Below, in pieces: positions 3,712 to 64,000 of a stretch of DNA of 64,000 nt (position 1 is its first letter; each line of letters opens with the position of its first letter). The stretch spans positions 11,943,130-12,007,129 of the forward strand of contig CM119263.1 of NCBI GenBank assembly GCA_051294375.1, written 5' to 3'. The notes beneath the pieces are model-generated. The model saw nothing but the letters and a program-made list of their open reading frames with translations. It was not told the DNA's origin and searched no databases. This stretch comes from Paraspadella gotoi (Eukaryota > Animalia > Chaetognatha). A program made the position numbers and the translations under genes.

Positions 3712-3932
3712 TGTGGATCAGGCGCTTAGTGGGCTGAAGACTACTATCCGTAACTTCTATTCCCCCTCAGTAGCCATGGAACGGGTCCTGGGCTTGGAAC
3801 CAGGCTTGAGGGTTTTCCACGCTTATCTATCTTATCTATCATAAGCTGATAGATTTACTCAATAAGCCATCGGGTCACAACTGAAAGTGTCATGCTTATT
3901 AGCGGGGTGAACTAAGGCAATGCCCGACTACA
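3712..3932 (-). mobile_element. Solo LTR, TRIM family E (internally deleted)
   Basis: Homologous to 34698-34983; TG..CA ends; TSD cata. Confidence 0.8.
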
Positions 3933-7349: not shown

Positions 7350-7604
7350 TATGGCAACAGCCGGGTTGCCTGTGATGCCCATTGGGATGGGGCATCTCAC
7401 TGTTGGCTTTGGGGGCTTCCGACCATCAGTGACGCCTCCAGTCACTGGCGCGGTTACCCTAGGACGGTCTCGCTTTGCCAACGCAGAGGGAAGTCGTTAG
7501 GACTGTGGATGGAACACAACGCCTGGGATGGTGAGTTCCCCCTCTGAGCCAATGGATTTGGCTGAAGGATTGTGGACGTGAGGCGGTGTGAATATACCGC
7601 CACA
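7350..7604 (-). mobile_element. Solo LTR, family A (255 bp)
   Basis: Near-identical inverted copy of 48159-48413; TSD agat. Confidence 0.85.
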
Positions 7605-14515: not shown

Positions 14516-14772
14516 TATGGCAACGGGAGGATAGCCTGTGATACCCGGGGCGCGAGGTATCTCACCAACTGGCGTAGGGCCTGCGGACCCTCAGTGACCG
14601 CCTCCTGTCACTGGCATGTTTATACCGGCACCGTCACATTTAAGCCAGAACCGGGATACCCAGGGATTGAACCCGGGACGCACGGATGGAATGAGATGAT
14701 TTAGCCTGCTCAGCCATTGAGACGAGGCTGAGGACGGACAGCAGTGAGGCAGCTTTAAGTCTTGCTGCCACA
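14516..14772 (-). mobile_element. Solo LTR, family B (257 bp)
   Basis: TSD ggca; minus strand TGTGGC..GCCATA, A box TGGCTGAGCAGG, B box GGTTCAATCC. Confidence 0.82.
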
Positions 14773-14898: not shown

Positions 14899-15132
14899 TA
14901 TGGTGGACTAAAATCCACCAACCGTTCCTTAGCGGCCATTGGTGCAGGAGCCAAGTCATTCGACTCCCAACCCAAAGGTCCTGGCTTCTAGCCCGGTGGT
15001 CATCTCGCAGTTAAGAGGGACAGGGGGCTTAACCCACCTGTAACACGGTGTTACTGCCTGATCCGCAGCTCAGGGACTGCTTATATTGAACGGTTCTGTC
15101 ATTCACACATAACAATAATTACTGTCTCCTCA
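14899..15132 (+). mobile_element. Solo LTR, family F1
   Basis: TATGG..CTCA; TSD attt. Confidence 0.85.
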
Positions 15133-27872: not shown

Positions 27873-28367
27873 TCTAAAAAAGAATTATACTTTCTTATGT
27901 TAACTTTTTGCAAGGAATCCAAATCCGATCTTAAAATTTAAAAATTTACATTTTGAAATTTTAGCCTATTATATACTTGATACTATATATAGGTTTTTAA
28001 TTTCATGTTTTATATGCTAAAGTTTAATTTTCTCAAATTTTATCATTTTCACATCTCTCTACTCTATAATATAGAGTCGGGATCTGCTGAAAAATATTCA
28101 TTAAATTTTCGTTGCGCTAATCAAAACATTTTTCTGCTAAAAAATCTTCAAAATTCAAGTCGCAAAATAATATTTGTGCCATAGTAACAATTCAGTTTAA
28201 TCCCTTGAAAGCGATTTATATGTATTGGCGCAGCAACTGGTTCATAATCTGGTATTGCTTGCTCAAACTTTTTTGTACAATAATGTCATTTCTAAAATTT
28301 ATCCTTTACCTGTTTAGGTGAGTAATCCTGTGAAGTAAGGCATAGTAAAATTTCTAAATTTAACCAA

Positions 28368-28890
28368 TATGGTGGACTAAAATCCACCATCCGTTCATCA
28401 GCGGCCATTGGTGCCGGAGGCAAGACATTTGCCTCCCAACCCAAAGGTCTGGGGTTCTAGCCCGGTGGCCGCATTGCAGTTAAGAGGGATGAGGCTCTTA
28501 ACCCGCCTGTAACACGGTGTTACAGCCTGATCCGAAGCTCAGGGACTGCTTACATTGAACGGTTCTGTCATTAACACATATCAATAATTACTGTCTCTTT
28601 ATTGGTGAGCCTGACTTCCGAACACAACATCAACAACAACACTTTCAGGCGACATGCCTCAACCTGGTGATGCACTTTCCGCCAACAACACATCAGGCGA
28701 CATGCCTCAACTTGGTGACGCACTTTCCACCAACAACAACAATTCACTGAGGAGACGCAACAGACTTCTCCCTATGGGAGGGGGGAATGTTTGGTGGACT
28801 AAAATCTACCAACCGTTTATCAGCGGCCATTNNNNNNNNNNNNNNNNNNNNNAGGTCCGGGGTTCTAGCCCGGTGGTCGCCTAGCAGTTA
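28368..28890 (+). mobile_element. TRIM family F1: LTR 28368-28601, PBS 28603-28611, PPT 28776-28787, second LTR (gapped and truncated)
   Basis: Direct repeats flank TGGTGAGCC and GGGAGGGGGGAA. Confidence 0.85.
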
Positions 28891-29382
28891 AACCGATTCC
28901 GTTTTGGAACTACAAAGAAAGTACTACGTAGTTCAAATCATTAGAACGCCGAATTTAGCCTAAGCTTTGTATGCGTGATCCGGGCCTCATAAGAAATGAC
29001 TGAAAAAACCATAGACTCGGCGGTATCATAAGAATACCGAAGTAAACAAAATAAAGGTGAAAATACATTATTTTTGAACGATATATGTAAATCTATGTAA
29101 AACTACGCCGGTCATGACAAGATACGACCGTAGCCGTGGGACACGACGAGATGATATCCGGATCCTGCCTCGTCCGTTTCTCCGCGAAGAATATCTTTTG
29201 AAGGANNNNNNNNNNAATGAACAACATTATATTTATGAACATTTCTGTATAAAAATATTTTATTACAAAGTTTACAATTTATGCATTACCATTAGGCCAT
29301 ATTTATACGGAGTACTAATCCAATTTCAGAAGATTTTTTTGCAGATTTGGATTTGTCATAAAATGTTGATGAAAAGAAATAT

Positions 29383-34697: not shown

Positions 34698-35402
34698 TGT
34701 GGATAAGGCGCTACGTGGGCTGAAGATGACTGTCCGTAACTTCTATAACCCCCTCTAGCAGCCATGGAACGGGTCTTGGGCTTGGAACCAGGCTTGAGGG
34801 TTTGCCATGCCCCCAAGGCGGCTTACGGTCGTCCTCAGGCTTCCTGCAGGGTAGGTACCGGGTTGGGATTGAACCCGGTACCTAGTGGTCATGAGCTGAT
34901 GGCTTTACTGAATGAGCCACCGGGCACAACTGAAAGTGTCCATGATTCTAGGCGGGGTGAACCTAGGGCAATGCCTGACTACATGCCCCCAGATTGTAAA
35001 CCCACCCTGCACTGCTTTCAGTGGAGGAGGGGAGCAATCTTCAGCTAGACCAAGGGCCTGGAATCAGAAGGTTGGAATACCGCTCGACAGGATAGGCTCA
35101 CCAGTGTGGATAAGGCCGCTACGTGGGGCTGAAGATGACTGTCCGTAACTTCTATTAACCCCTCTAGGCAGCCATGGAACGGGTCCTGGGCTTGGAACCG
35201 AGGCTTGAGGTTTGCCATGCCCCAAGGCGGCCTTACAGCCATCCTCACGCTTCCGCAGGGTAAGGTAGCGCGGGTAGGGATTGAACCCGGTACCTAGTGG
35301 TCATGAGGCTGATGGCTTTACTCAATGAGCCACCGGGTCACAACTGAAAAGTGTCATGATTCAGTCTAGGCGGGGTGAACCTAGGCAATTTGCCCGACTA
35401 CA
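34698..35402 (-). mobile_element. Two-LTR TRIM family E: LTRs 34698-34983 and 35105-35402
   Basis: Minus-strand PBS TGGTGAGCC at 35095-35103, CTGGGGGCA before the 3' LTR, tRNA-Met-like core in the LTR; no matching TSD. Confidence 0.82.
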
Positions 35403-36469
35403 TATAGTACTATCCTTATAAGATCAAAAAATTTCAAAAAAGGCTCTTCTTAATTTTGATTGCAGATTTGAATTCCTCGTTAAAAATTAATAACAGAAAA
35501 TATAAATCATTTTTAAAAATTATTTAATTAAGTGGGTAAAAAATTTAAAAAAATCTATTTAATATGTAAAATTTTAATTTTCAGTTTAAAAAACAAATTT
35601 TTTTCTATATTTGATCAACTTAATGAAAGAATTTTTTAAAAGAGTTATATTTCTTTATATCAACTTTTCATGACGAATCCAAATCTGCCAAAAAATCTTA
35701 CAAAAAACTATTTTGTAATTTTAACATTTATTGAATTAGTACTAGTATAAATATGGCATATTGCGTAAATTGTAAAATTTATTATAAAATTTTTTTATAC
35801 ATAAATGTTCATTAGTATAATGTTATTCGTTCCTCACTTTTAGAATTTTAATTAAAGTTAAATTTAGAATTTTTACTACGCTTTACTACACAGGATTACT
35901 CACCCAAACAGATAAAGGATAAATTTTAGAAATAACAATATTGTACAAACAAGTTTGAGCAAGCAATACCAGATCTGCCCCTGATCATTTACCGGTAAGA
36001 ATCTAATCAGATTATAAATCAGTTCTACGCCAATACATATAAATCGCTTTCAAGGGATTAAACTGAATTGTTACTGCGGCACAAATATTATTTTGCTACT
36101 TGAATTTTGAATATTTTTTTAGCAGAAAAATTCTGTTTGTCTGTCTGTCCGTTCGTCCGTCCGTCCCAACTGAGCTTTGAATGCTAATTACTCATGATTG
36201 TATTGGGCGATTGACTTAAAATTTTGTATGCCGGTAGGAACGTGTGTGATTTAGCTGGAAATAAAGTTTCGATGGAATTGTCCGAGTGGAAATGAGGTAA
36301 AATGGAAAAAATAAAAAAAAACTATTTCACTATGAAATTTATTGAACCAATATAAAAATTATCTATTCATATACTAAATAAGCTATCTTGCCCCTGACTT
36401 TGGACAGGCTTTGGTGGTTTTAGGCCTTCATCACTCTTACAAGATAATGACATAGCAAATCCATGCAAG

Positions 36470-36672
36470 TGAAGAGACAGTAATTATTGTTGTGTTAGTG
36501 ACAGAACCATTCAATATAAGCAGTCCCTGAGCTTCGGATCAGGCTGTAACACCATGTTACAGGCGGGTTAAGCGCCCCATCCCTCTTAACTGCCAAACGA
36601 CCACCGGGCGAATGACTTGCCTCCGGCACCAATGGCCGCTGATGAACGGTTGGTGGATTTTAGTCCACCATA
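36470..36672 (-). mobile_element. Solo LTR, family F1
   Basis: TSD caag. Confidence 0.85.
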
Positions 36673-40163: not shown

Positions 40164-40908
40164 TGAAGAGGCCTGGTTCTTACAGGGCGCCACACCGCAG
40201 CGGTGTCACCGGTCGTGGCGACAGCGAGACTGCATGTTCATGTAGTCGCAGAGCTTTGGATATGGCAGTAAGGCCAATGCCTACAGGCGGTTACCCGGTC
40301 ATCCGCACTTTCTACATGGACAGCTCAGGGCTCGCAACCAGGGACGCACCATTGGATGGTGGCATTAGTCCGCACTGAGCCACGAGCGCCGCCTGCGAAG
40401 AAACAGCTTTAATCTCTGTGTGGATAGGGACACAGACAGCCGCCCAGACTCTCGGCATATGAGAGCGAAGCACGGGGGATGAAGCGCAATGTCTCTCCGC
40501 ACTGAACCTCTCTTCATTCTGGTGGCCTTGCTTTGAGTGCAGCATGTGTAGCTCAAACCACATCAGGGCAGAGGAGTATTTCATGCCCGGGTTGCCGTGT
40601 TCGGGATCACGTCGGGCTCAGCATTGAAGAGCTGGTTTTACAGGGCGCCACACCCCGCAGTGGGGGGGGGGGGGGGGGGGGAGGGGGGGGGTTGTCACTC
40701 GTGGCGACAGCGAGACAGCATGTTCATCGTAGTCCGACTTCTGGATCTGGCAGTAGCCCATGCCTACAGGCGGGTTACCCGGTCCATCCCCTTTCTAATG
40801 ACAACCTCGGCTCGAACGCAGGACGCACATTGGATGGTGATTAGTCACTGAGGCCCTGGAGGCGCTGCGAAAGAAAAGCTTTTCCAATCTTGTGATAAGG
40901 ACCACAGA
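40164..40908 (-). mobile_element. Complete TRIM family C: LTRs 40164-40438 and 40625-40908
   Basis: Direct repeats, TSD acat, PBS matching the tRNA-Trp 3' end (atcacgtcgggctcagca, 40606-40623). Confidence 0.85.
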
Positions 40909-42400: not shown

Positions 42401-42893
42401 TATATGATTTATTTTATTATCTATCTATTATTTATCTATAAAATATTTAAATTAAACTTTTAAAATAAATGATAAAAAAGAACATGTAACACATCTAGCG
42501 AATTTCTAAAATTAGTTTGTAGCTTTAGAACTAATTTTTTGCTGTTTTTGGTAACTTCGGGTTTGTAAAAGTAGTTTTTCAACATAATAAGCACCTAAAA
42601 CTATTTTTTTAATATATTAACTAACTTGCAATGCAATATTCTAGTCAGGAATGAACTAATTATATTAAAAAATTAATTTTAAATAGAACTTGTTCAAGAA
42701 ATCTACGAATATATATGAATTTTGACGCTCGTGGCACTTTGGCGCTCCTGGGAAGGGCCAAGAATTTTAAAAAGTCTAACAAAAGTCATATATTCAGATA
42801 GAACGGAAAAAAGGAAAAGAATGCCGTTCTCCTGAGATTTCTATCTTAAAAAGAATCGGATTTAAATGTGTCTATTACAGGTTCAGTCTAAAT

Positions 42894-43980
42894 ATGCAAA
42901 CGCGAACGCCACTTTATCCCAAATTAAAAATTTTTGCCCCGTCGAAGGAATTTCAACCTCCACTGTGCCAACCACCCAAAAGAAAAGACGTGCTAGAACG
43001 ATTCTTTGACATTTTCCTTTCACAGTCAAAGAATAATCAGAATATGCAGCTTGCAGCTCACAAAGTTGCAAAGGAGCTCATTGAGCTGTGGAAAATAGGT
43101 GATGCTCGAATTCCCCTCAATGGCCGCAACACCATTAAAAAGAAGATTTTAGATTTTCGGGCTGATCTCAAATATCTGTGCAATAAATCGAAAATTGGAA
43201 GAGGCTCATACAATAACAACAGCACGACACACCATGCCCGCTGGATGGGCTCTTGCCTATACATCCTCAAGATGTTCATCAGTGGTGACGTTTTTATTCT
43301 CGGAGGACAGCAGAAAGTGGACGTCTTGATGTTTTCTTTTTACATTATCTACCTACTTTTTTTATTGGTTCTCGTGCACGCCCCCTTCTTAACACTTCTT
43401 CTTTACAAAGATCTAGAAGCCTGGCGTTCCCGAGATCCTGAAGGGGCGAGGTCAGCCTTGAGAAAGGTCGATCTCCATTGCGAATACCTTTATGGAAGGT
43501 CAGTCGTCTTGGCCTTGGCTTCAAGCAAGGTAAAAGACGAGACTAAGAAGGCAATAGCTGAAAAACTTAAGTCTTTCGATGTTAATGATCACGTCGAAAT
43601 TGGAAAACCTGCAATGCCTCGATTTTACCCTGAGATGAAGCTCGAAGATTTTATTTCTCAAGATTCATGGTTATTTTTCAAGGTAATATTTTCAATTAAA
43701 TGTCTCAAACAAAAAATTTATTCATAAATATTATTAATTATGTCGCTTTGCCAGTTTGATCCAACTTTCCTTGCCAAGGAAGTTGAAGAGTGGAAATGAC
43801 ATGACAATTATAAAATCTTCTGCAATTTGTCAAATGGCTTTTCCCTATTAATGACGCCGGGAAAGGGCTGTCAGTTTGCTTTTGACTTAAACGGCGCAAT
43901 AACTCGAAATAAAAACCAACATCAAGACGATGCTGCAAAGGAGTCGAATACATCGCCGCGTCCATCCAAAGCCAACGAAA
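42894..43980 (+). pseudogene. Internally deleted DNA transposase, hAT (hATm)-like
   Basis: HHARWM, GKP, LEDFI..SWLFF and a downstream frameshifted INDAG motif; catalytic middle appears missing. Confidence 0.65.
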
Positions 43981-48158: not shown

Positions 48159-48413
48159 TGTGGCGGTATATTCACACCGCCTCACGTCCACCATCCTTCA
48201 GCCAAATCCATTGGCTCAGAGGGGGAACACACCATCCTAGGCGTAGTGTTCCATCCACAGTCCTAACGACTTCCCTCTGCGTTGGCAAAGCGAGACCGTC
48301 CTAGGGTAACCGCGCCAGTGACTGGAGGCGTCACTGAGGGTCGGAAGCCCCCAAAGCCAACAGTGAGATGCCCTATCCCAATGGGCATCACAGGCAACCC
48401 GGCTGTTGCCATA
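48159..48413 (+). mobile_element. Solo LTR, family A
   Basis: TGTGGC..GCCATA; TSD gttg. Confidence 0.85.
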
Positions 48414-53322: not shown

Positions 53323-56300
53323 ATGGCGTCCTACCACAGCAGCGTGCCGCCGTCGATGGTGGCCAAGGATGCCAAATCGGAGGCGAGTGCGGCCGCGGCG
53401 GTCAAAGACCTCGACGACGCCTCCAAGAAGCAGTCGCGCGAGGATTGGCGCAAAGTCAAGGAGTTGGAGGAGATGAGAAAGGCCGGGACCGCCCCGGCCG
53501 CCGTCGACGAGGAGGGTCGCGACATCAACCCCCACATCCCCCAGTACATCGTGTCCTGCCCTTGGTACGTCGGAATTACTCGCCCTACTCTCACGCATCA
53601 ACGGCCTCAGGTCAGCAAATCATTGTTTGTTTTTAATTGTTTCTGAATTAAATTTTAATTCGCGTCTATGCTATTTTTACGTTTCATCGTTTACTTCTAT
53701 AAATTTATAACCAACTCATTTATATAATCAACCAATTTATTTTTGTCCTTCCGCAGAAAGAGAAGCAACACCAGTTCGCCCGTATCGAGGACACTTACGA
53801 CCGGGGACTTAAAAACGATGTTGCGCTGAAGTTTCGCAAAGGCGCCTGTGAAAACTGCGGTTCAATGTCGCACAAACGAAAAGACTGTATGGAGAGACCC
53901 AGAAAAATCGGGGCGAAGTTTACGGGTACTTTGGTCAATGAACGGCTTTAAGAAAAAAAGTCATTCAGTTCAACTTCAAAATAGGCCAAAATGGATTACA
54001 AATTCAGAAAGCTGAGCTCCTGCCGATTCCGAAAATGTATTCACTTTAAACATTTGATGTATTCTACGCCATTTTATATCGGTTCAACAGAGTCGAAACA
54101 TGTACTATGTAAATAAAAATCGTTGTATTGGCAAACAATAAACAATTCCTAATATCGGTTTTAATTATAATATAAAATAAAAGAAACCTATCTGAAGAGT
54201 TGCAGGTCAAACGAAAAGGCCAATCCATCTGATATTTTTTATGAATTTTTTATTACTGAATTAGAAAAATGTAATAGAGAGACATTTTTAAATTTCAACT
54301 TGTATCCTTGAAAATGAAATGTTTTTAAACTTTAACCCTGAATTCTTTCTAACTGGAACACGTTTATCAAAATGTCTCTCTATTACATTTTTACAAATGT
54401 TTTTAAGATTGTTAATCAAATTTTTAATTCAATATTATTGCAGTCGTTTAGGCTGCAACTCTTCAAATTCAGTATAGATTCATTGTTGCTCAAATTTCTT
54501 TACCATCTATTTAACTGAAGATTTTGTTCATGACTGGAAAACCAACAGAGTAACGAGATTGTTTAATTCTCCCCTTCTAAACTAACCCATACCGTGTTTT
54601 AACTTCTTACCTAGAATTTTTTAACAACCAGATTGAAAAACAAATCTTTAAAAAATGTGCTTACCCATTTAACTTAACAATTTTGTTATTTACCCATTTA
54701 AAAAAAATTATTAAAAACAGAATGTTTACATATGAATAAAAACTTATTTTTTTGTGATTACTGATGATTATAATGTATTTCTCGATATATTAGCTCTAAT
54801 ACATCAAGGATTACGTATTGTTATGCTGAATGACCTTTCCTCTTAACTTAGATTTTTTAGTAATGGGGTAGTGCGGGGTAATTCGGAACAGGGGTAATTC
54901 GTAACACTGACATATAAATTGAAATAAAAAAATTGTTGAGATATTTTAAAATATTTTTTGGTGCATTAAATATTTCAACAACCTGACATACCATTATTAA
55001 GGTTACTTTCCGCTGCTGCTGCAGCAGCTTCAGCAGCAATTTCAAAGCTGCTAGTCGAATTTCGTCTTTGAGTAGTCGTTTTCAAGCCTCTGTCAGTCAT
55101 ATTTGACCATCCCAACGTTCCTTGGATCAAAAGCAGTTCAAGTGAAATCCTTTCTCTCTTCACTCACTTTTAGCTTGCTCGACTCTTCCTTCTACTCGAG
55201 CAAGCTCCTCCTACTCCCTTCGAGCTTTGATCGCGTACGTTGGGCGTGAGCTGTCTCTGCTCGTGGTATCGCTAGCGTCGATGTGACCCCCCCCCCTTCT
55301 AAAAAGGGGCGAGGAGGGCGGAGTCTATTAAGGATGAGCTTGTGACGGATGAGGATTCGCGGAGCCGACGTACGAGCGTAGGCCGTTGGACGCCGAATCC
55401 GTCAGTGCGACTCCTTGATCAGCTTGCGCAGAAGCAGCACCAGCAGATGCGGCAGTCGGCGATGATAGCGATGACGAGGACTCCGACCGTAATTGTGGGC
55501 GCAACATTCTGCCATGTCGCCCTTTGCATGAACTCGTGATCGAACATGAGCGCCTCGGAGTGCTTCAACATGAATTCACCCACGTCCTTGAACAGGTCTC
55601 GTACGACGGTTCGGTTCGGGCACAGTTTCTCACAGAATTTTATTCTCTATACTAATGCCTTTGTAGAAAATCTTTTGTATTTTCTATGCCTGCGGGGTCG
55701 CGCGTTCGAGGCGTCGGCCGTCGGATGAACAGATTTTGACAAGGAGCAAGGATTTCGTAGTATCTTACTAAATCTCGAAGCGTAAAGAAAAACGTCGAAA
55801 AATGTAGAATAAATTGTAAATTATTTGTATTTTTGTAGAGATAAATCCATGGCAAATCAATGAAAAGTCGAAAAAATGTTTGTAATAAATCCTTGGATCC
55901 GTAAAAACTACGGTTCCAGACGGCCGATGTTTTCTTTAAAAATGATTCTGATCGAATAACAAGTGACGAGGTTTTCGGCCGAAAGAAAGCCACAAGAAAG
56001 CAACTAGAACGGTGAAAAGATAAGGTCAGCTAAGGTCAACTTAAGGCCTGGGATCACTGGCCAAAAGTTAAAATTAGGATTAAATAAAGCTTGTTTTCGA
56101 AAAGTAGAGGTCCAGTCCAGTCCAGTCTTCGAATCCATTGCTGTTTTTTCGAATTTTATAATACTATATAAAATAAAAGAAACCTTTCGGAAGAGTTGCG
56201 GCCCAAACGGCTAAGCGGATTTTCATGAAATTTTACATAAATTTACTTGAGGACAAGGGTCCCAATTCTATGAGAGGGATTTTTCAAATTCACTTATCTT

Positions 56301-59300
56301 CATAAGAAAAAAAAAAGAATAAGAAAATTTTGACATTAAATTCTTTATATTTTGAAAACTAGTAACATTTTCCAAAATCCCTCTCATTGAATTTCTCCCA
56401 CCTTTCCATACTTATAAAAAAATATTTTAGTTTATTTTTATTTCAAACGGTTTTAGCTCCAACTCTTTTTGTTTATTTATTTTTTTTTTTTTTTTTTTTT
56501 GTAGATTTTACAGAACTGAAAGTCGAGCAAAGAACTTTAAAATCGATACGCTTTTCCGAAATCTATTTTCATGTCTAGTTTAAATGATGGCTTTACCGAT
56601 CTTTAAAGTTTTATCCAAATTTTGTACAATTTTTTTTAAATTAACAAATGGCTGTGGCTGGGGAAAGCAGTCAGTAAACAAGGAGGAATGCTGCAAAGTG
56701 TTTATTTATTTTTTTCTCAGTCTTGTTTTGAACCAGCTTTGAACCTGGGGAACAGAAATTAAATGTCAAAAGCAGAGCATGAGGCTGGTTCGTCTGTGGA
56801 ATCTGTGGCAGTCTAGGGCACCATTGAGGGTTGTTATCAAAGTGGACCCAACTTCAGATGCCAGGGGACGAATGTCTTTGAATTTTAAAATTTTAAAATT
56901 TTTAATCATTCTTTTTTGTAATAAAATGATAATAGACATCCTCATATAAGCGTTCTGCTCTCTCTCTACATAAACGTTTGTTTTCATCATTAATTGATTC
57001 TATAACATAATTGGAATGACTTGGTTTTAGTTGTTAGTATTACACTGAGGTAGGTGCTGTTAATTGAAAAAAAATTAAAATTTGCGTTTAAAAATGACTT
57101 TACCGTGTTGGATGAAATTTTTAAGGTTTACTGATAAAAAAAATTGCCCGATTTTTAGTTGCCTCTTGAAGCTAAACCTTAATCAAATTTAGAGTTTTTT
57201 TTTTTTTGAAACATGAAGGGAATACACTTTCTTTGACATAATAATAAATTGTACAAAGCTTTATGCAATTCTTGTTTGAATGATCCCAGGCCTTAAATGA
57301 CTAAAAGAATGACCCGACGCGAGGTAACATATCTTACACCACGGTCCAAAATTGATTAGAATTTTGCTTCAAAGTAAAAGTCGTGTGATGTTTGAGAAAC
57401 TTGGCCCCGTCATTGAAAATGGTAGAGAATTGTTGCCGTTGGAACCGTCGTCGCCCCCGTCATTGAAAGACGACGTGAAGTTAGAGAAAAGGCACATGGA
57501 AAGAAAAAATTAAACAAAGCTGTAGAATAATTAAGATATGCCATAAAGGCATGTGCATAGGGGTCACTGCCTTAAGTAGCAATGGCACTAGACCACACTG
57601 CTATTAAAAATTAAAGGCTTGTGCATGGTGGTCACTGCCTTGAGTAGCGATGGGGCATAAGCTCCCTGCTACTAATAATTAGAGGCTTGTGCATGGTGGT
57701 CACTGCCTTGAGGGAAGGCGGACGTATTGGGATCGTCCCCTGACCCTCATGAGGAGAGCATACGTATTATGATGTCGCCCGTAAGGGCAGACTTGATCGC
57801 CTGGGCAAGGACTTCGGCTCAGGACTGAGTCACTGGGAAGTCCAGCTCCAGAGATGAATCAAGGCCCAAGATCTAAGATAATTTTGTAAGATGGGATTTC
57901 AAACAACCTCCTGTTTTATTTATTTAAATGTTTACTTCGGAAACTTTTCAATTCATAAAATGATTTTTTTTTTTTTTTTTTTATTTAATAGAACCGTTTC
58001 AAAGATCAAGGTAAAAAAATGTAATATGTCTTGATTTGATGGTATCAATGACGGCGTTGTATCTATGGACGAACTGTTTGATTCGAGCAACATTGTTGTC
58101 GTCATCCACTTTGCATATTCTGGGCTGTCCCGAAAGCGTTGTTCGTCCATGAAGACATCATGAAGAGATGAGTGGTGGAGACCGTCGCAAGCGCTACAAC
58201 TGCGCTCAGAGCGGCAGTCCTTTGATTCGTGTCCTGGACGAAGGCATAGTAAGCAAATTTTTTTGATCGGCGGCCCATTTTCTTTCTTCACTACTTAATT
58301 TACGATAGTGGGCGCAGGAAGGTGTCGGGTGGTTTTCTTCACAGATAATGCATACGACGTTCTTTGATGGTCGATTAAGTTTTCATTTTGAATTAGCGTT
58401 GGCTTTGTCAACGGAATTGGTCGTGGAGCCAAAGATGAAGGTTGCGGCAAAGGAAATGGCCTGGGAGTCGACATTGAAGTCGGTGATGGGTTCGGAGACA
58501 TCGACGTAACCAGCGGCATCGCGAAGGCAACCTTTCTTCTTCTAGGAGATTTTCTATTCTTTGTTAGAGAAGACGTGAAAGGAGGTAAAACTTTGTCGTT
58601 ACGATACGGAGAATAAAGAGGCAAGGATTGGAGGCTTCCTAATTGATGGAGATTTTCCTCCAATTTTCGAATTCGATCATGAAGTGGAGAGACAGCAAGA
58701 GCCACGGCAGCATCAATGAGCGGCGCCATTTGCCTGAGCGAAACGACTCCCCCGTCGTTTTCAAGTGTTGAAAAAAGGGGTGAAGATGAAGGCGTCTTCT
58801 GGCAAGTTCGTTCTTTCTCCTGCTGCTCTTTTATTGTAATGATCTCAACTTTCAATGTGTGAAGATCATCTTGAAGACTCTCCTCCGTCCTTTGGATCCG
58901 ATCGTTGGCCTGAGAAAAAGACACTTTCAAATCATTTAATGGCTGTTGGTATTTCTGCTCCATGCGGAGTAGACTTTCCACCATAAATTTGCTAAAAATT
59001 TCAAAATTTTGGTTAAATGAGAGATTAATCGTGTTGGCCAATTGCTGATTTTCCTGGGACATCGTAGATGAGTCCATTGTTGATGTTTTTGCTTGGTTGA
59101 TTCGATTTGAACGCCGATTCCAGGAGGCGGTTTTGTAGTTTTTACTGTAGAAAATCTTTTGTATTTTCTATGCCTGCGGGGTCGCGCGTTCGAGGCGTCG
59201 GCCGTCGGATGAACAGATTTTGACAAGGAGCAAGGATTTCGTAGTATCTTACTAAATCTCGAAGCGTAAAGAAAAACGTCGAAAAATGTAGAATAAATTG

Positions 59301-61993
59301 TAAATTATTTGTATTTTTGTAGAGATAAATCCATGGCAAATCAATGAAAAGTCGAAAAAATGTTTGTAATAAATCCTTGGATCCGTAAAAACTACGGTTC
59401 CAGACGGCCGATCTTTTCTTTAAAAATGATTCTGATCGAAAAACAAGTGACGAGGTTTTCGGCCGAAAGCAACTTGAACGGTGAAAAGATAAGGTCAGCT
59501 AAGGTCAACTTAAATGACTAAAAAAGAATGACCCGACGCGAGGTAACAAAATATCTTACAGCCTTCTTCTTCCCACTCGAGTTAGGTATCCACTTTGTGC
59601 GCTATTTCTATAGCTAAAGCGCATTTTTCAGCTGTTTTTAAAGGTGCAAACAGTTTACGTATACGGCTAATGGCACTGTGGCCGGCTAACAACGGCGTTT
59701 GTTGCTATGTCGCCCATCGGTGGCATCTTCCGAATTGGAGGAAACTTTTCCGATAATTTTTGTAATCTTGTGGCCATCTCATTTGCAAGCTCGGCCACTT
59801 TATTTCGTTTTTCGATATTTGGATCTGTCTGTGCCCTCTTAACTGAGAAGGACTTGTAATTTTCACAGGCATTATTTTTCACAACAATAACTTCATCATC
59901 GTCAACAAGAAAATCACGCCTTCTCGCATCGAATCTGCCCGTTCTGCCGTTCCAAGGTTGGTCTTTACGTTTATTTGCCCAGCGGCCATCATCGCCAAAT
60001 TTTCGCCGGTCGCCACGGCGATCCTCGAGGCGGTCGTCCCTGCGGTAGTCGCTCGTGGGAGCCGATTTCCATTTCCTTTCTTCAGATGGGCGTGTCTTTG
60101 TTTGTTTCTTGCACCATCGTGCCCTGGTAGAGTGCGTTGGCGCTGTCGGTGGGGTCTTTGTCCGATTGGAGTCTGTGTAGTTGGCGGTCATCTTCTTTTA
60201 CCGAGTTCATGAAGCGGCGGGAAGAGGCGTCAAGACCTCGGGAGTTGAGTTAGCCACGTAGTTTCCATTCGATGATGGAACCAAGCTCGTGGCGTTTCCC
60301 TTCGACCGTTATGCCCGGCGCGTACTGTTCCAGCGCCGTGTTGAGCAGGCGGGCTACGTGGCGGGCGATTGCCGGACGTTCTTCCGTGGCAACATAGTCG
60401 CAATGGCGGTAAACTGTGTTGACCAACGCCAAACCGAACTTCGAGTTGACAACTGGATCGACGACCACTGAGATAGTGGCTGATGCCTCCAGGATCCCTA
60501 CTGACGTCGATTTGCTCATTTCTTTCAGGCGACGCCAAAGACGATGGGGTCAATGAAGACGCTCGCTTTCTCGTCACGGGCGAGCAGGTCTTTCAGCTGG
60601 TTGACCTTGGGATCTTCGCCGCAGTCGCGGAGGGTTTTGTAGACTCCCATGAGAAAGTCCTCTGGCGTCTCGTCTGCGCGGCGCTTTTCCAATTTAATCG
60701 CTTGGCCGTGAGTTCTCAGCAGGTCCGTGCTGGCCGCCGTGGCTGTAGACTGCGGCGGCTCGATTGTCGCGGCTGCGAAGGTGGTAGCGGCGAACGCGGT
60801 GTCGAACTTAGCGTTGATAGAGGCGACTGCGGTGTTCGCCTCGTTGACGGAAGCGTGTCTCTGAAAGCGGCGTTGATGTCTTTCGGCGACATGGATTTTT
60901 TTCTTTCGAGCGTCTCTGGAGTCGCCCGGCAAGTCAATAATGACGCCGTTTGAACCTATGATGGAGGACCGCGGGGGCGTCGCGGCTTTTTACCCCAAGG
61001 TGGAGTAAAACGGAACACGTTTCAATTTTTTAAAAAATGAGCCCCTAAGGTCCGCAGGATAAAAACGAATACATCAACCTGTAACAAATTAATTTACTAT
61101 GTGAAAAATTTGAATACTTCCAAAAGTGTTCCGAATTACCCCGCACTACCCTACCCTAGTCTATTCGTTTTTGAATCTTTCTCCGTCTCAGGCGACGACA
61201 TCGCCCCCGACGAGAAGGTTTTGCCCGATTTCTCCTTCGACTTTGACGGAAAGCGCGATCGGTGGAACGGATATGACGCCCGCGAGCACAAGCGCGTCAT
61301 CGAGGAACACGTTAAGCTGGAGGAAGCAAAGCGGGTCCTCAAGGCACAGAAGTTGGCCGACAGTTTGGTGGGTGTCTGAAAGAAATTGTAAAGATTGGAC
61401 GAGGAAAGCTGCAGCGACGATAATGTCCTTATCGTTAACAGTTGAAAGGCGAATTGCCGGAAAAAGACAAAAAGAAGGCGGAGGATTCTGATTCGGATGC
61501 GGACGAGGACAAGTACGCCGACGAGATGGACATGCCTGGAACAAAGGTGACCATTCTGGAAGGTCTAGGCCTTCGTCCCTCTACTTTTCCCCATTTTATT
61601 CCAAAAATCGTGCCATATTATCCAGATCGATTCGAAACAAAGGATCAGCGTGCGAAACCTTCGAATCCGCGAGGACACGGCAAAGTACTTGAGAAATCTG
61701 GATCCCAATTCGGCCTACTACGACCCCAAGACTCGTTCCATGAGGGACAACCCATACAAGAACGCCGGAAAGAAAGAGGACGAGGTCGATTACGCCGGTG
61801 GGTGGACTCCCAATTTGTAACGCTTCGTTTATGAACTTTTATTGAATGTGAACTTTGTTTTATTTCAAAATGAATTTTTTTTTTTTTTTAAGGCGACAAC
61901 TTTATTAGAGCCAAGGGCGACACTTTAGAAATGGCGGGCGCGCAGGTTTTCGCGTGGGAGGCCGCCGAAAAGGGCATCGACGTTCACTTGCAG
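53323..61993 (+). CDS. SLU7: Pre-mRNA splicing factor SLU7, first six exons (53323-53610, 53757-53925, 61192-61367, 61442-61546, 61626-61797, 61893-61993); continues beyond window
   Basis: [17 protein letters not shown], zinc knuckle [47 protein letters not shown]; GT-AG introns in phase. Confidence 0.95.
55662..59560 (-). mobile_element. Bel/Pao-derived Gag-only LTR element (LTRs 55662-57338 interrupted, and 59146-59560)
   Basis: About 415-bp TG..CA LTRs, 5-bp TSD gcctt, knuckles [27 protein letters not shown]. Confidence 0.88.
56045..57292. mobile_element. Kolobok-type non-autonomous DNA transposon
   Basis: TTAA TSD, GGCCTGGGATCA TIRs; the other LTR is the empty site. Confidence 0.8.
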
Positions 61994-62039
61994 GTTACGA
62001 TCACGAACCTCAGTTTTAGTCCCTCCTTACGTACATGTA

Positions 62040-62515
62040 CATTAAGGCGTAGTAAAATTTCTAAATTTAACTTAATTAAAATTATAAAAGTGAGGAACGA
62101 ACAACATTATATTAATGAACATTTATGTAATAAAAAAATTTATAAATTTTACAATTTACGCAGTAGGCCATATTTATACTAGTACTAAACCAATAAATGT
62201 TAAAATTTCAAAACAGTTTTTTCAAAAAATTTTTTGCAGATTTGGATTCGTCATAAAAAGTTGATAGAAAGAAATATAACTCTTTTTGAAAAATTCCTTC
62301 ATTAAGTGGGTCAAAAATTAGAAAAAGCTATATTTTAAGCTGAAAATTAATTTTTTATATATTAAATAGTTTTTTTCAATTTTTAACCCACTTAATGAAA
62401 GAATTTTTAAAAATGATTTATATTTCTTTTATCAACTTTTGACGAGGAATTCAAATCTGCAATCAAAATTAAGAAAAGCTTTATTTGAAATTTTTCGATT
62501 TTATAAGGATAGTAC
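62040..62515. repeat. Abundant AT-rich dispersed repeat (copies or relatives near 2541-3152, 20030-20410, 26410-28055, 33860-34330, 35403-35990, 47850-48060)
   Basis: Shared blocks such as GCAGATTTGGATTCGTCAT and TTCATTAAGTGGGTCAAA. Confidence 0.8.
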
Positions 62516-64000
62516 TGTGGACGAACAAATAGAACATGCAACCTCGGTCAAACCACTTGACCTTAACAACCTGACCCCGCTCGTTTCCCCAGTTTATTTG
62601 TGGTCAAAATGTTGACCTTTGTAAATACCATTGTAATAGACTTAGCATCTGAGCATTTTAACTGTTATTGTTTATACCATGTTGAAGAATAATTCATTCT
62701 TGATCTGAAACTTGTCGTCCATACGTGGTAAGCCCGACGTGAAAAAACATAAAAAATAAAACGAAAAACAAAAAACAAAAGAAAAACAAAACAAAAATAA
62801 AAACTCAAACGAAATAAATTTTTACGCGTTTTTGCCATTTTGTAAATCTTTTTTTTTTTTTACAGTGAACAACTTAAAACCTGAATCAATTCTTTTTTTT
62901 TTAATGCCACGATCGTACCACCTGAGCGTCACCCGCCCTCCAACGCCTGCCGACGAAGAGGAATCGACCATGCCTGTAACAACACGCAACGCCTCTCAAT
63001 CCGACAGCGCTGGCCGCGACGACGCCTTCCACGACGCCGCCGCCTCGACGTCCGCGACGCCTCTCGAATTGCAAATCGAGAGTCTTTTCCAAATGGTCTT
63101 CGAGATCAACAGAAAACTCGCCGCGGTCACGGAAAGGCCCAATCCCCCTTCAGCGGACGCAAGCACCGCTTCAACGGAGTTGCCTCCATCGGTGGAAGAC
63201 GGCGCCAGTGACGCCACCCCCACAGGCAACCCGACCCTCTCACGCCCTCCAGCGCCTTCCAGCGCTTCAGCAAGAAGGAGAAATCCCAAGCTGACGACCT
63301 TCGACCCAGACCACATCGAGGAGTGGCAAGACCACGCCGCTGTGGAATTCGGCGCCACCGGCGTCACCGAGCCGGCGGAGAAGAAGGCGCTCATCCTCAG
63401 CGCCATCCCCATCTCCCGCCACCGGCTAATCCCACATGGTCTCCGCATCGACGAAGGCCCTGAAGCTTACAAAAATTTGATTCTCCACTTGCAGAAAATT
63501 TATGGTGAGGATGCCAACAGACGTGCCGCAAAGGCGCTGAAGATGACGTCACTGAAAGGCGTCACTCCTTCCCAGCACCTCTCCGCGATCGACGCCGTCT
63601 TGGAAGGTCTCACCATGGACCACATCAAGGCTGCCATCTTGGCTGCCTCCCTCCCTCAAAGCGTCAGGGAACACGCCATCAGGAAGGATAAAAAACCCGC
63701 CGACATCGCCAAAGACGCCGACGAATTTTTCCTTCAGGCCAGCTTCGCAGCTCTGACCGCACTTCATCCTCAGTGAATGCCGTCACTTTCAGTGAGGTCA
63801 CAGTGGACGAGCCACTGGAGCTTCTTGATGAATCGGCAAGCAACGCTGATGACGCCGCCATCTCCTACGCAAACGCAGTTTGCCGGCCGCCGCCGCGCTC
63901 AACGCAGTGCCCTGCCCCGCAGCAATGCCCATCACAGCAGCGCACGCAGCAGCAACGGCGCCCAACATTAACGCCCCGCTCCCCGCCACACCGTGAACCG
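62516..64000 (+). mobile_element. Gypsy LTR retrotransposon (CsRn1-like): LTR 62516-62723, PBS 62726-62742, gag ORF 62832-63776
   Basis: TGTGGACGA..TCGTCCATA LTR, PBS TGGTAAGCCCGACGTGA; Gag KLTTFDPDHIEEW..F..GVT..PSQHL resembles CsRn1-type (DUF7041-like) Gag. Confidence 0.82.

What the first reader, a model, noticed from the sequence alone, without database searches (positions are those of the whole stretch)
62516..64000. Candidate helper Gypsy matches the TRIMs in primer site and unusual LTR ends
Seen: LTR TGTGGACGA..TCGTCCATA ends in TA rather than CA, as do families A and B (TGTGGC..GCCATA). Its PBS TGGTAAGCCCGACGTGA is nearly identical to the TRIM PBS. Known: CsRn1-clade Gypsy elements use tRNA-Trp and make 4-bp TSDs. 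Inference: this lineage supplies Gag, RT and integrase in trans. This copy has a stop at 63776 and pol lies outside the window.
Basis: partly seen in the sequence, partly recalled or inferred. Interest (0 to 1): 0.72.

Follow-up and report, generated by a model that had tools for sequence, protein, structure and literature searches.

The report
Broken CsRn1-type retrotransposon beside miniature retroelements
This is the front end of a broken copy of an ordinary retrotransposon that very likely belongs to the known CsRn1 group, whose odd TA ends are already described; that group likely lends its enzymes to the miniature elements nearby, but nothing ties them to this particular family.

Summary
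Observation confirmed. A 208-bp LTR (62516-62723) runs TGT..ATA, followed by a tRNA-Trp-type primer site and a gag frame that stops at 63776. Clade: 35 of 47 Gag relatives carry the CHCC knuckle that defines CsRn1, and none carries CCHC. TGT..ATA ends are a published CsRn1 trait (PMC2582038), so they are not unusual for this clade. Contigs from three of four runs list no other letter at the T. RT, integrase, the 3' LTR and this copy's TSD lie outside the window and were not retrieved. The helper claim holds only at clade level. Seven of 9 nearby small elements have a perfect 4-bp TSD. But the primer match is with family D, which ends in CA, while the TA-ending families A and B are solo LTRs with no primer site here. 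No LTR similarity links the Gypsy to any TRIM. Gypsy-driven, tRNA-promoter TRIMs (Helenus), including a Trp-primed family, are already published (PMC10886601). This copy cannot be the helper, because its Gag is cut short before the knuckle. New member of known kinds; modest interest.

The parts
62516..62723 (+). 5' LTR of the Gypsy, 208 bp, TGT..ATA, 8 of 9 terminal inverted repeat
   Evidence: 15 contigs of run X1 have unlike flanks before 62516
62512..62515 (+). left flank gtac, the expected 4-bp TSD; it is the centre of the palindrome AGTACT in an interrupted host repeat; right copy not seen
   Evidence: paralogous host-repeat copies continue TATA or similar at this point; duplication itself untested
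62726..62742 (+). primer-binding site of tRNA-Trp type, after a 2-nt spacer
   Evidence: 11 of 12 to the CsRn1 motif in PMC2582038; 15 of 17 by eye to the bee tRNA-Trp end printed in Fig S2 of PMC10886601
62904..63776 (+). gag, capsid region about 63261-63734, frame ends early at TGA 63774-63776
63692..64000 (+). second stop-free frame to the window end, likely the capsid-to-knuckle linker of gag
   Evidence: profile test inconclusive
48159..48413 (+). family A solo LTR, TG..TA, TSD GTTG
7350..7604 (-). family A solo LTR, TG..TA, TSD ATCT; 249 of 255 identical to the other A copy
14516..14772 (-). family B solo LTR, TG..TA, TSD TGCC, Pol III A and B boxes on the TG..TA strand
   Evidence: 0 of 200 shuffles reach its box score
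34698..35402 (-). family C TRIM: two LTRs TG..CA, 120-bp interior, PBS-like TGGTGAGCC, A and B boxes, no TSD
3712..3932 (-). family C solo LTR, TG..CA, TSD TATG
40164..40908 (-). family D TRIM: LTRs end CA, PBS at 40623 is 15 of 17 identical to the Gypsy PBS, TSD ATGT; noisy sequence
14899..15132 (+). family E solo LTR, TA..CA, TSD ATTT (other copies 36470-36672 -, TSD CTTG; 181-390 -, 3 of 4)
28368..28892 (+). family E TRIM: LTR TA.., PBS TGGTGAGCCTGAC at 28603, purine tract, second LTR with an N gap and cut off
61626..61993 (+). host SLU7 exons just upstream; the element likely lies in the next intron, same strand
   Evidence: GT at 61994 read; downstream exons lie outside the window

Best explanation
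62516-64000 is the 5' LTR, primer site and broken gag of one copy of a multicopy Gypsy family that very likely belongs to the CsRn1 clade, and enzymes of that clade, not of this copy, likely moved the nearby miniature elements. Shown: the LTR, the PBS, the Gag homology, the early stop, many related copies in four runs, and 4-bp TSDs on the small elements. Inferred mechanism: intact CsRn1-type copies elsewhere in the genome make particles. These would package the short TRIM RNAs (for B and C likely made from their tRNA-type Pol III boxes), prime them with tRNA-Trp, and integrate them with a 4-bp stagger. The integrase would accept ends in TA as well as CA: at the U5 end in this Gypsy and, by inferred orientation, in A and B; at the U3 end in E. 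My odds: CsRn1 clade 0.9; some CsRn1-clade family is the helper of most of these TRIMs 0.65; this exact family is the helper of A and B 0.25; this copy is a working helper 0.03.
For: Gag: 47 relatives at E<=0.001, best 1.4e-18. 35 of 47 carry C-x2-H-x7-11-C-x2-4-C, 0 of 47 carry CCHC, and all 4 with E<1e-10 carry CHCC. PMC2582038 section 6 gives the CHCC knuckle, Trp PBS, 4-bp TSD and TGT..AAA or TGT..ATA ends as clade features. PBS 11 of 12 to its motif. A third of crustacean Gypsy elements fall in CsRN1 (PMC3587641 passage), and the best named SLU7 hits are crustaceans. TA at 62722-62723: contigs cover the site in X1, X2 and X7 (3 of 4 runs), including a second LTR variant, and no other letter is listed at the 1% threshold. 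Small elements: perfect 4-bp TSD in 7 of 9, 3 of 4 in one, none in one. PBS of D, E and C match the CsRn1 motif at 11, 11 and 10 of 12. PMC10886601 infers Gypsy helpers for animal Helenus TRIMs from the same two signs, a shared PBS and a 4-bp TSD, and says LTR homology is not needed.
Against: No RT, integrase, 3' LTR or TSD of this element was seen. The knuckle is shown only in relatives at 24-43% identity, not in this family. No TRIM family in the window shows both a matching PBS and a TA U5 end. The Gypsy LTR has no similarity to any of 10 small-element LTRs (highest z 2.5). TA ends are not exclusive to CsRn1: some fungal, Copia-dependent Helenus consensus LTRs end or start in TA (supplement part 1). 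Other Gypsy clades also make 4-bp TSDs (Osvaldo-type Isis-like; Saci2). For A1, A2, B and the C solo LTR, a 5-bp TSD that takes the terminal A fits equally well (5 of 5), although it fails for D, E1 and E3. One CsRn1 member is reported with a 6-bp TSD. Two X1 contigs stop just before the last two LTR bases, so a CA-ending variant is not excluded.
Confidence: 0.68

Rival explanations
1. One reading: this very family is the dedicated helper of the TRIMs, shown by the shared primer site and TA ends.
For: PBS 15 of 17 identical to that of TRIM D, beyond chance. A and B share TGTGG starts and CCATA ends with this LTR. The family is multicopy in four runs. Three LTR insertions here sit in the same host repeat family.
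Against: The two matches concern different families. A Trp PBS is shared by a whole clade, with 14 families in one mosquito genome. Contigs under 90% alike are common over this stretch (193 of 861 in X1, 76 of 223 in X5), so several candidate subfamilies likely exist. No shared LTR or interior sequence beyond the PBS. The spacer before the PBS is 2 nt here and 1 nt in C, D and E, though Fig S2 of PMC10886601 shows such spacers vary.
Confidence: 0.2
2. The likeness is incidental: the TRIM families have several unrelated helpers (other Gypsy clades, possibly with other primers for A and B), and the shared TA ends are convergent.
For: The primer of A and B is unknown. C matches the Trp site over only about 9 bases. 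TA ends also occur in Copia-dependent fungal Helenus. Animal Helenus families use many primers within one genome.
Against: All three small families with a visible PBS begin with a Trp-like TG(G/C)TGAGCC, all but one insertion have a 4-bp TSD, and three or four families have an end other than CA, as CsRn1 elements do.
Confidence: 0.1
3. The stop at 63776 is an assembly error, and this copy is intact and could itself serve as helper.
For: The window has noisy stretches: the LTR pairs of C and D differ by 18 and 33 gap runs against 10 and 12 substitutions, and there are three short N runs.
Against: At several gag positions every contig laid in all four runs differs from this copy (table 3), as expected for an aged copy or a different population. 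No listed contig spans the break in this copy's form in the rows shown.
Confidence: 0.05

Closest known systems
CsRn1 clade of Gypsy (CsRn1, PwRn1, AgCR1-14, CsRn1_Cv1)
   Same: Trp-type PBS, TGT..ATA ends, short LTR (146-407 bp in AgCR), CHCC knuckle in relatives; relatives' Gag ends 6-38 residues after the knuckle, as for a gag frame separate from pol.
   Different: PBS has A where the published motif has G (position 5). Gag is distant from Pfam DUF7041: no hit for this protein, 29 of 47 relatives hit at E<=0.01 and 5 pass the cut-off. That DUF7041 is the CsRn1-type capsid is my recollection; one search found no paper naming it. RT, integrase GPY motif and TSD unseen.
Helenus / TRIMp3 (Kojima 2024, PMC10886601)
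   Same: TRIMs with tRNA-type boxes in the LTR, 4-bp TSD in animals, solo LTRs, Gypsy helper inferred from a shared PBS, including a Trp-primed wasp family paired with Gypsy-32_NVi.
   Different: The arthropod cases in the main text are parasitoid wasps; the word crustacean does not occur in it. The parts read do not name a Gypsy clade as helper or use LTR-end letters as a sign. Here boxes are clear only in B and C, marginal in A and D, and not above shuffles in E; ARAGORN and Rfam see no tRNA.
Cassandra, Ajax and retrozymes (non-autonomous LTR elements with a small-RNA module)
   Same: Short non-coding LTR elements moved in trans without LTR homology to a helper.
   Different: No 5S rRNA or ribozyme family was matched by Rfam in the window or in three focused scans.

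Membership tests
CsRn1 clade (Gypsy) | PBS complementary to tRNA-Trp | tested here: met
   11 of 12 to the motif in PMC2582038; 15 of 17 by eye to bee tRNA-Trp; the host's own tRNA was not available
CsRn1 clade (Gypsy) | CHCC zinc knuckle in Gag | tested here: inconclusive
   Not in the window: it lies 105-119 residues past the capsid end in 5 of the 6 top relatives, and 89 codons are available. Present in 35 of 47 relatives, CCHC in 0, which supports membership indirectly
CsRn1 clade (Gypsy) | LTR ends TGT..ATA or TGT..AAA | tested here: met
   no other letter listed at 62722 in contigs of 3 of 4 runs
CsRn1 clade (Gypsy) | 4-bp target site duplication | not testable with these tools
   3' end outside the window; no genome held; no copy found in metagenome, viral or prokaryote collections
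CsRn1 clade (Gypsy) | RT phylogeny inside CsRn1 | not testable with these tools
   pol not retrieved; search for longer fused proteins gave none
CsRn1 clade (Gypsy) | GPY/F motif at the integrase C-terminus | not testable with these tools
   pol not retrieved
Helenus-type TRIM (families A-E) | tRNA-derived A and B boxes in the LTR | tested here: inconclusive
   Met for B and both C TRIM LTRs (0 of 200 shuffles each); 6-11 of 200 for A, the C solo LTR and D3; 52-168 of 200 for E and D5 (box patterns recalled)
Helenus-type TRIM (families A-E) | two LTRs around a short interior with PBS and purine tract, under about 1.3 kb | tested here: met
   C 705 bp and D 745 bp; E2 has LTR, PBS, purine tract and a cut second LTR; A and B seen only as solo LTRs
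Helenus-type TRIM (families A-E) | 4-bp TSD (animal type) | tested here: met
   perfect in 7 of 9 insertions, 3 of 4 in one, absent in one
Helper-TRIM pair (this family with A/B) | same primer site and same ends in one TRIM family | tested here: inconclusive
   A and B have no PBS in the window; the PBS-bearing C, D and E end U5 in CA (one decayed E copy reads TA)
Helper-TRIM pair (this family with A/B) | shared LTR or interior sequence | tested here: not met
   highest z 2.5 over 10 LTR comparisons; the leader matches D and E only weakly (z 5.4-5.5, score equal to the PBS stretch) and C not at all; PMC10886601 says such homology is not required

The most novel reading that the evidence does not exclude
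One CsRn1 lineage in a crustacean drives a swarm of at least five unrelated, Trp-primed, Pol III-promoter TRIM families. Its integrase leaves a readable fingerprint: ends cut after TA or other non-CA letters at either U5 or U3, a 4-bp stagger and a purine-NNNN-pyrimidine target. In family E the TG next to the purine tract is missing from the integrated ends, as if trimming went by distance from the DNA end and not by the CA signal. This would be the first named helper clade for animal Helenus-type elements.
Probability: 0.3. Interest if true: 0.55.

Novelty: new member of a known kind. Interest (0 to 1): 0.3.

Why it matters
Helpers of animal TRIMs are mostly guessed from the primer site alone, and some searches found none (PMC6934838 passages). 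If TA ends plus a Trp primer plus a 4-bp TSD hold up genome-wide, they would narrow the helper to one clade and extend Helenus-type elements to a likely crustacean host. The element at the finding is itself an ordinary, broken CsRn1-type copy, and its TA end is a described trait of that clade.

Tried and rejected
Retrieving the rest of the element failed: no genome is held. No relative was confirmed in metagenome contigs by protein (0 of 232 pattern hits) or by LTR-PBS pattern (0), in viral contigs (0 of 3 and 0 of 110) or in prokaryote genomes (0 of 105). Word-seeded protein searches found nothing among 7991 longer and 464 similar-length candidates; only the full HMMER scan found relatives. 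Pfam gave no hit for the Gag itself. The single-sequence fold was poor (pLDDT 50): Foldseek gave no match at E<=0.001, and VIA-align gave best Z 5.4, with Copia and Ty3 capsids only at Z 4.1 and 3.9, so it was not used. A profile of the capsid-to-knuckle linker from 10 relatives did not single out the open frame (35 of 200 shuffles scored as high), and BLAST of the three frames against 45 relatives gave nothing at E<0.05. No RNA holder was listed for the stretch. Dating the TRIMs from LTR pairs was rejected because the pairs differ mainly by 1-bp gaps. A blind scan for TG..CA/TA elements with TSD gave mostly chance pairs, so the TRIM set was taken from self-similarity and boundaries set by eye. 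In one search the E3 coordinates were wrong; they were corrected. tRNA, 5S and ribozyme families were not found in the TRIM LTRs. A programmed gag-pol frameshift at 63776 was considered and rejected: relatives end Gag after the knuckle, 35-136 residues past the capsid end, whereas this frame stops about 14 codons past it. Three look-ups of earlier findings returned nothing.

Full report
Observation. The sequence is as described. An LTR of 208 bp runs from 62516 to 62723, TGTGGACGA..TCGTCCATA, with an 8 of 9 inverted repeat. Two bases later comes the primer site at 62726-62742, then an A/T-rich leader and a gag frame from ATG 62904 to TGA 63774-63776; another frame is open from 63692 to the window end. 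No pol domain was found in 59 of 59 long, GC-richer frames of the window. The element interrupts a palindromic host repeat at AGTAC|T. It lies just downstream of SLU7 exons, likely in an intron. The best named hits of one 57-residue SLU7 exon are crustaceans at 88-89% identity, a weak pointer to the host group.

It is a multicopy family. In four public runs of one organism, 861, 223, 203 and 163 contigs lay on 62440-64000, many under 90% alike. Fifteen contigs of run X1 carry unlike flanks before 62516, which fixes the LTR start. Over the LTR-PBS junction, contigs exist in X1, X2 (same sample) and X7 but not X5. They include a second LTR variant, and no other letter is listed at 62722 at the 1% threshold. 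So TA is not a private mutation as far as 5' LTRs show. Limits: 31 loose-end rows were hidden, no 3' LTR junction was seen, and two X1 contigs stop just before the last two bases.

Clade. A language-model search placed the protein among retrotransposon Gags. A full HMMER scan with the capsid region found 47 relatives at E<=0.001, best 1.4e-18. Of these, 35 of 47 carry the CHCC knuckle and 0 of 47 carry CCHC; all four with E<1e-10 carry CHCC. The 12 without it include short pieces and two long proteins that look like chance hits. 29 of 47 hit DUF7041 at E<=0.01, five above the curated cut-off. PMC2582038 (sections 5 and 6 and passages read) lists the CsRn1 traits: Trp PBS, CHCC knuckle, 4-bp TSD, and ends modified to TGT..AAA or TGT..ATA. 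PMC3630058 (passages) repeats the definition and reports one member with a 6-bp TSD. PMC3587641 (passages) puts a third of crustacean Gypsy elements in this clade. The PBS matches the published motif at 11 of 12. CsRn1 membership is therefore very likely, and the TA end is expected for the clade. The knuckle itself lies past the window: 105-119 residues after the capsid end in 5 of the 6 top relatives, with 89 codons available here. RT, integrase and TSD could not be retrieved.

This copy is broken. The gag frame stops about 14 codons after the capsid end, short of where relatives place the knuckle. One contig in each of the four runs differs from this copy at the break region, carrying 12-33% of the summed depth there, and at several other gag positions every contig laid differs from it. 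That the second open frame is the rest of gag is likely but unproven: a linker profile scored no better than 35 of 200 shuffles. An assembly error is possible, since parts of the window are noisy.

The small elements. Five families of short LTR-like elements lie in the window. Of 9 insertions with both ends, 7 have a perfect 4-bp TSD, one has 3 of 4 and one has none. For four of them a 5-bp reading that takes the terminal A fits as well; it fails for D, E1 and E3, so 4 bp is the only length that fits all. Of the 8 insertions with a TSD, a purine precedes it in 6 and a pyrimidine follows it in 7 (p 0.011 against 50%). This pattern was noticed after the fact, and PMC2582038 saw no target preference in mosquito CsRn1 elements. 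A and B are related solo LTRs (z 30) with TG..TA ends. C, D and E have a PBS, matching the CsRn1 motif at 10, 11 and 11 of 12, and end U5 in CA after a 1-nt spacer; one decayed E copy reads TA there. E starts with TA in 4 of 4 integrated left ends, while its second LTR has TG between the purine tract and that start. D shows a similar offset in noisy sequence. Pol III boxes are clear in B and both C TRIM LTRs (0 of 200 shuffles), marginal in A, D3 and the C solo LTR (6-11 of 200), and not above chance in E and D5. In C the boxes lie on the PBS strand, and in B on the TG..TA strand. So B's TA end is likely its U5 end, as in the Gypsy.

The helper question. The Gypsy LTR resembles none of 10 small-element LTRs (highest z 2.5), and its leader shares only the PBS with D and E. 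A Trp PBS marks a clade, not a family: one mosquito genome has 14 such families, and this genome has several subfamilies. TA ends also occur in fungal Helenus consensus sequences that depend on Copia (supplement part 1 of 11), and 4-bp TSDs occur in other Gypsy clades. Taken together, Trp-like primers in all three PBS-bearing families, 4-bp TSDs and tolerance of non-CA ends point to the CsRn1 clade as the likely source of Gag, RT and integrase (0.65). They do not single out this family (0.25 for A and B).

Comparison with what is known. PMC10886601 (parts 1-5 of 6 of the text, supplement parts 1 and 10 of 11 and one search) describes Helenus TRIMs with tRNA-derived LTRs and 4-bp TSDs in animals. 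It infers Gypsy helpers from shared primer sites, including a Trp-primed wasp family. The word crustacean does not occur in its main text, and a search from 2024 on listed no other Helenus paper among the ten shown. I did not read the animal rows of its Table S1 or most of its animal consensus sequences, which may hold TA-ending cases. PMC6934838 (passages) found no helper for bivalve TRIMs. PMC12471100 and PMC6238403 were seen as passages only. Two searches listed no paper that names CsRn1 as a TRIM helper, which is weak evidence of absence.

Verdict. This is a broken copy of a new CsRn1-type family, next to new Helenus-like TRIM families. The general model is already in print. What could be new is the likely crustacean host and the use of non-CA ends to narrow the helper to one clade. 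Interest 0.3.

Noticed in passing
window 28770-28800 and 14899, 28368, 36672, 390: Family E begins with TA at all four integrated left ends, yet its second LTR has TG between the purine tract and that start. This suggests the U3 end is trimmed two bases inside the usual TG. Family D shows a similar offset in noisy sequence.
   Followed up: partly
window 62043-62515, 35406-35885, 28247-28364: Three LTR insertions (the Gypsy, TRIM C, TRIM E2) sit in copies of one palindromic AT-rich host repeat. TRIM C lies four bases from the position of the Gypsy in a paralogous copy.
   Followed up: partly
window 48310-48413, 7350-7453, 14516-14619: Families A and B share a 100-base 3' part with predicted hairpins; 1 of 28 pairs shows a change on both sides among three sequences. 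No Rfam family matched. It may be a packaging or strand-transfer signal.
   Followed up: partly
window 62630-62676: The middle of the Gypsy LTR draws far more contigs and summed depth than its 3' end, which hints at related LTR families or non-autonomous derivatives sharing this core.
   Followed up: no
window 55662-59513: A 3.85-kb unit bounded by 383-bp direct repeats (95% alike), with a 290-codon frame on the minus strand (58295-59167) and no convincing Pfam hit; possibly another retroelement.
   Followed up: no
window 34698-35402 and 40164-40908: LTR pairs differ mostly by 1-bp gaps (18 and 33 gap runs against 10 and 12 substitutions), which suggests uncorrected long-read sequence; ages from these pairs would be wrong.
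   Followed up: yes
window 42780-43727: A 315-codon open frame with no convincing Pfam hit; it may be a DNA-transposon remnant.
   Followed up: no
window 62730: The primer site has A where the published CsRn1 motif and TRIMs C, D and E have G. No other letter is listed there in the contigs laid, so it may be family-wide.
   Followed up: partly
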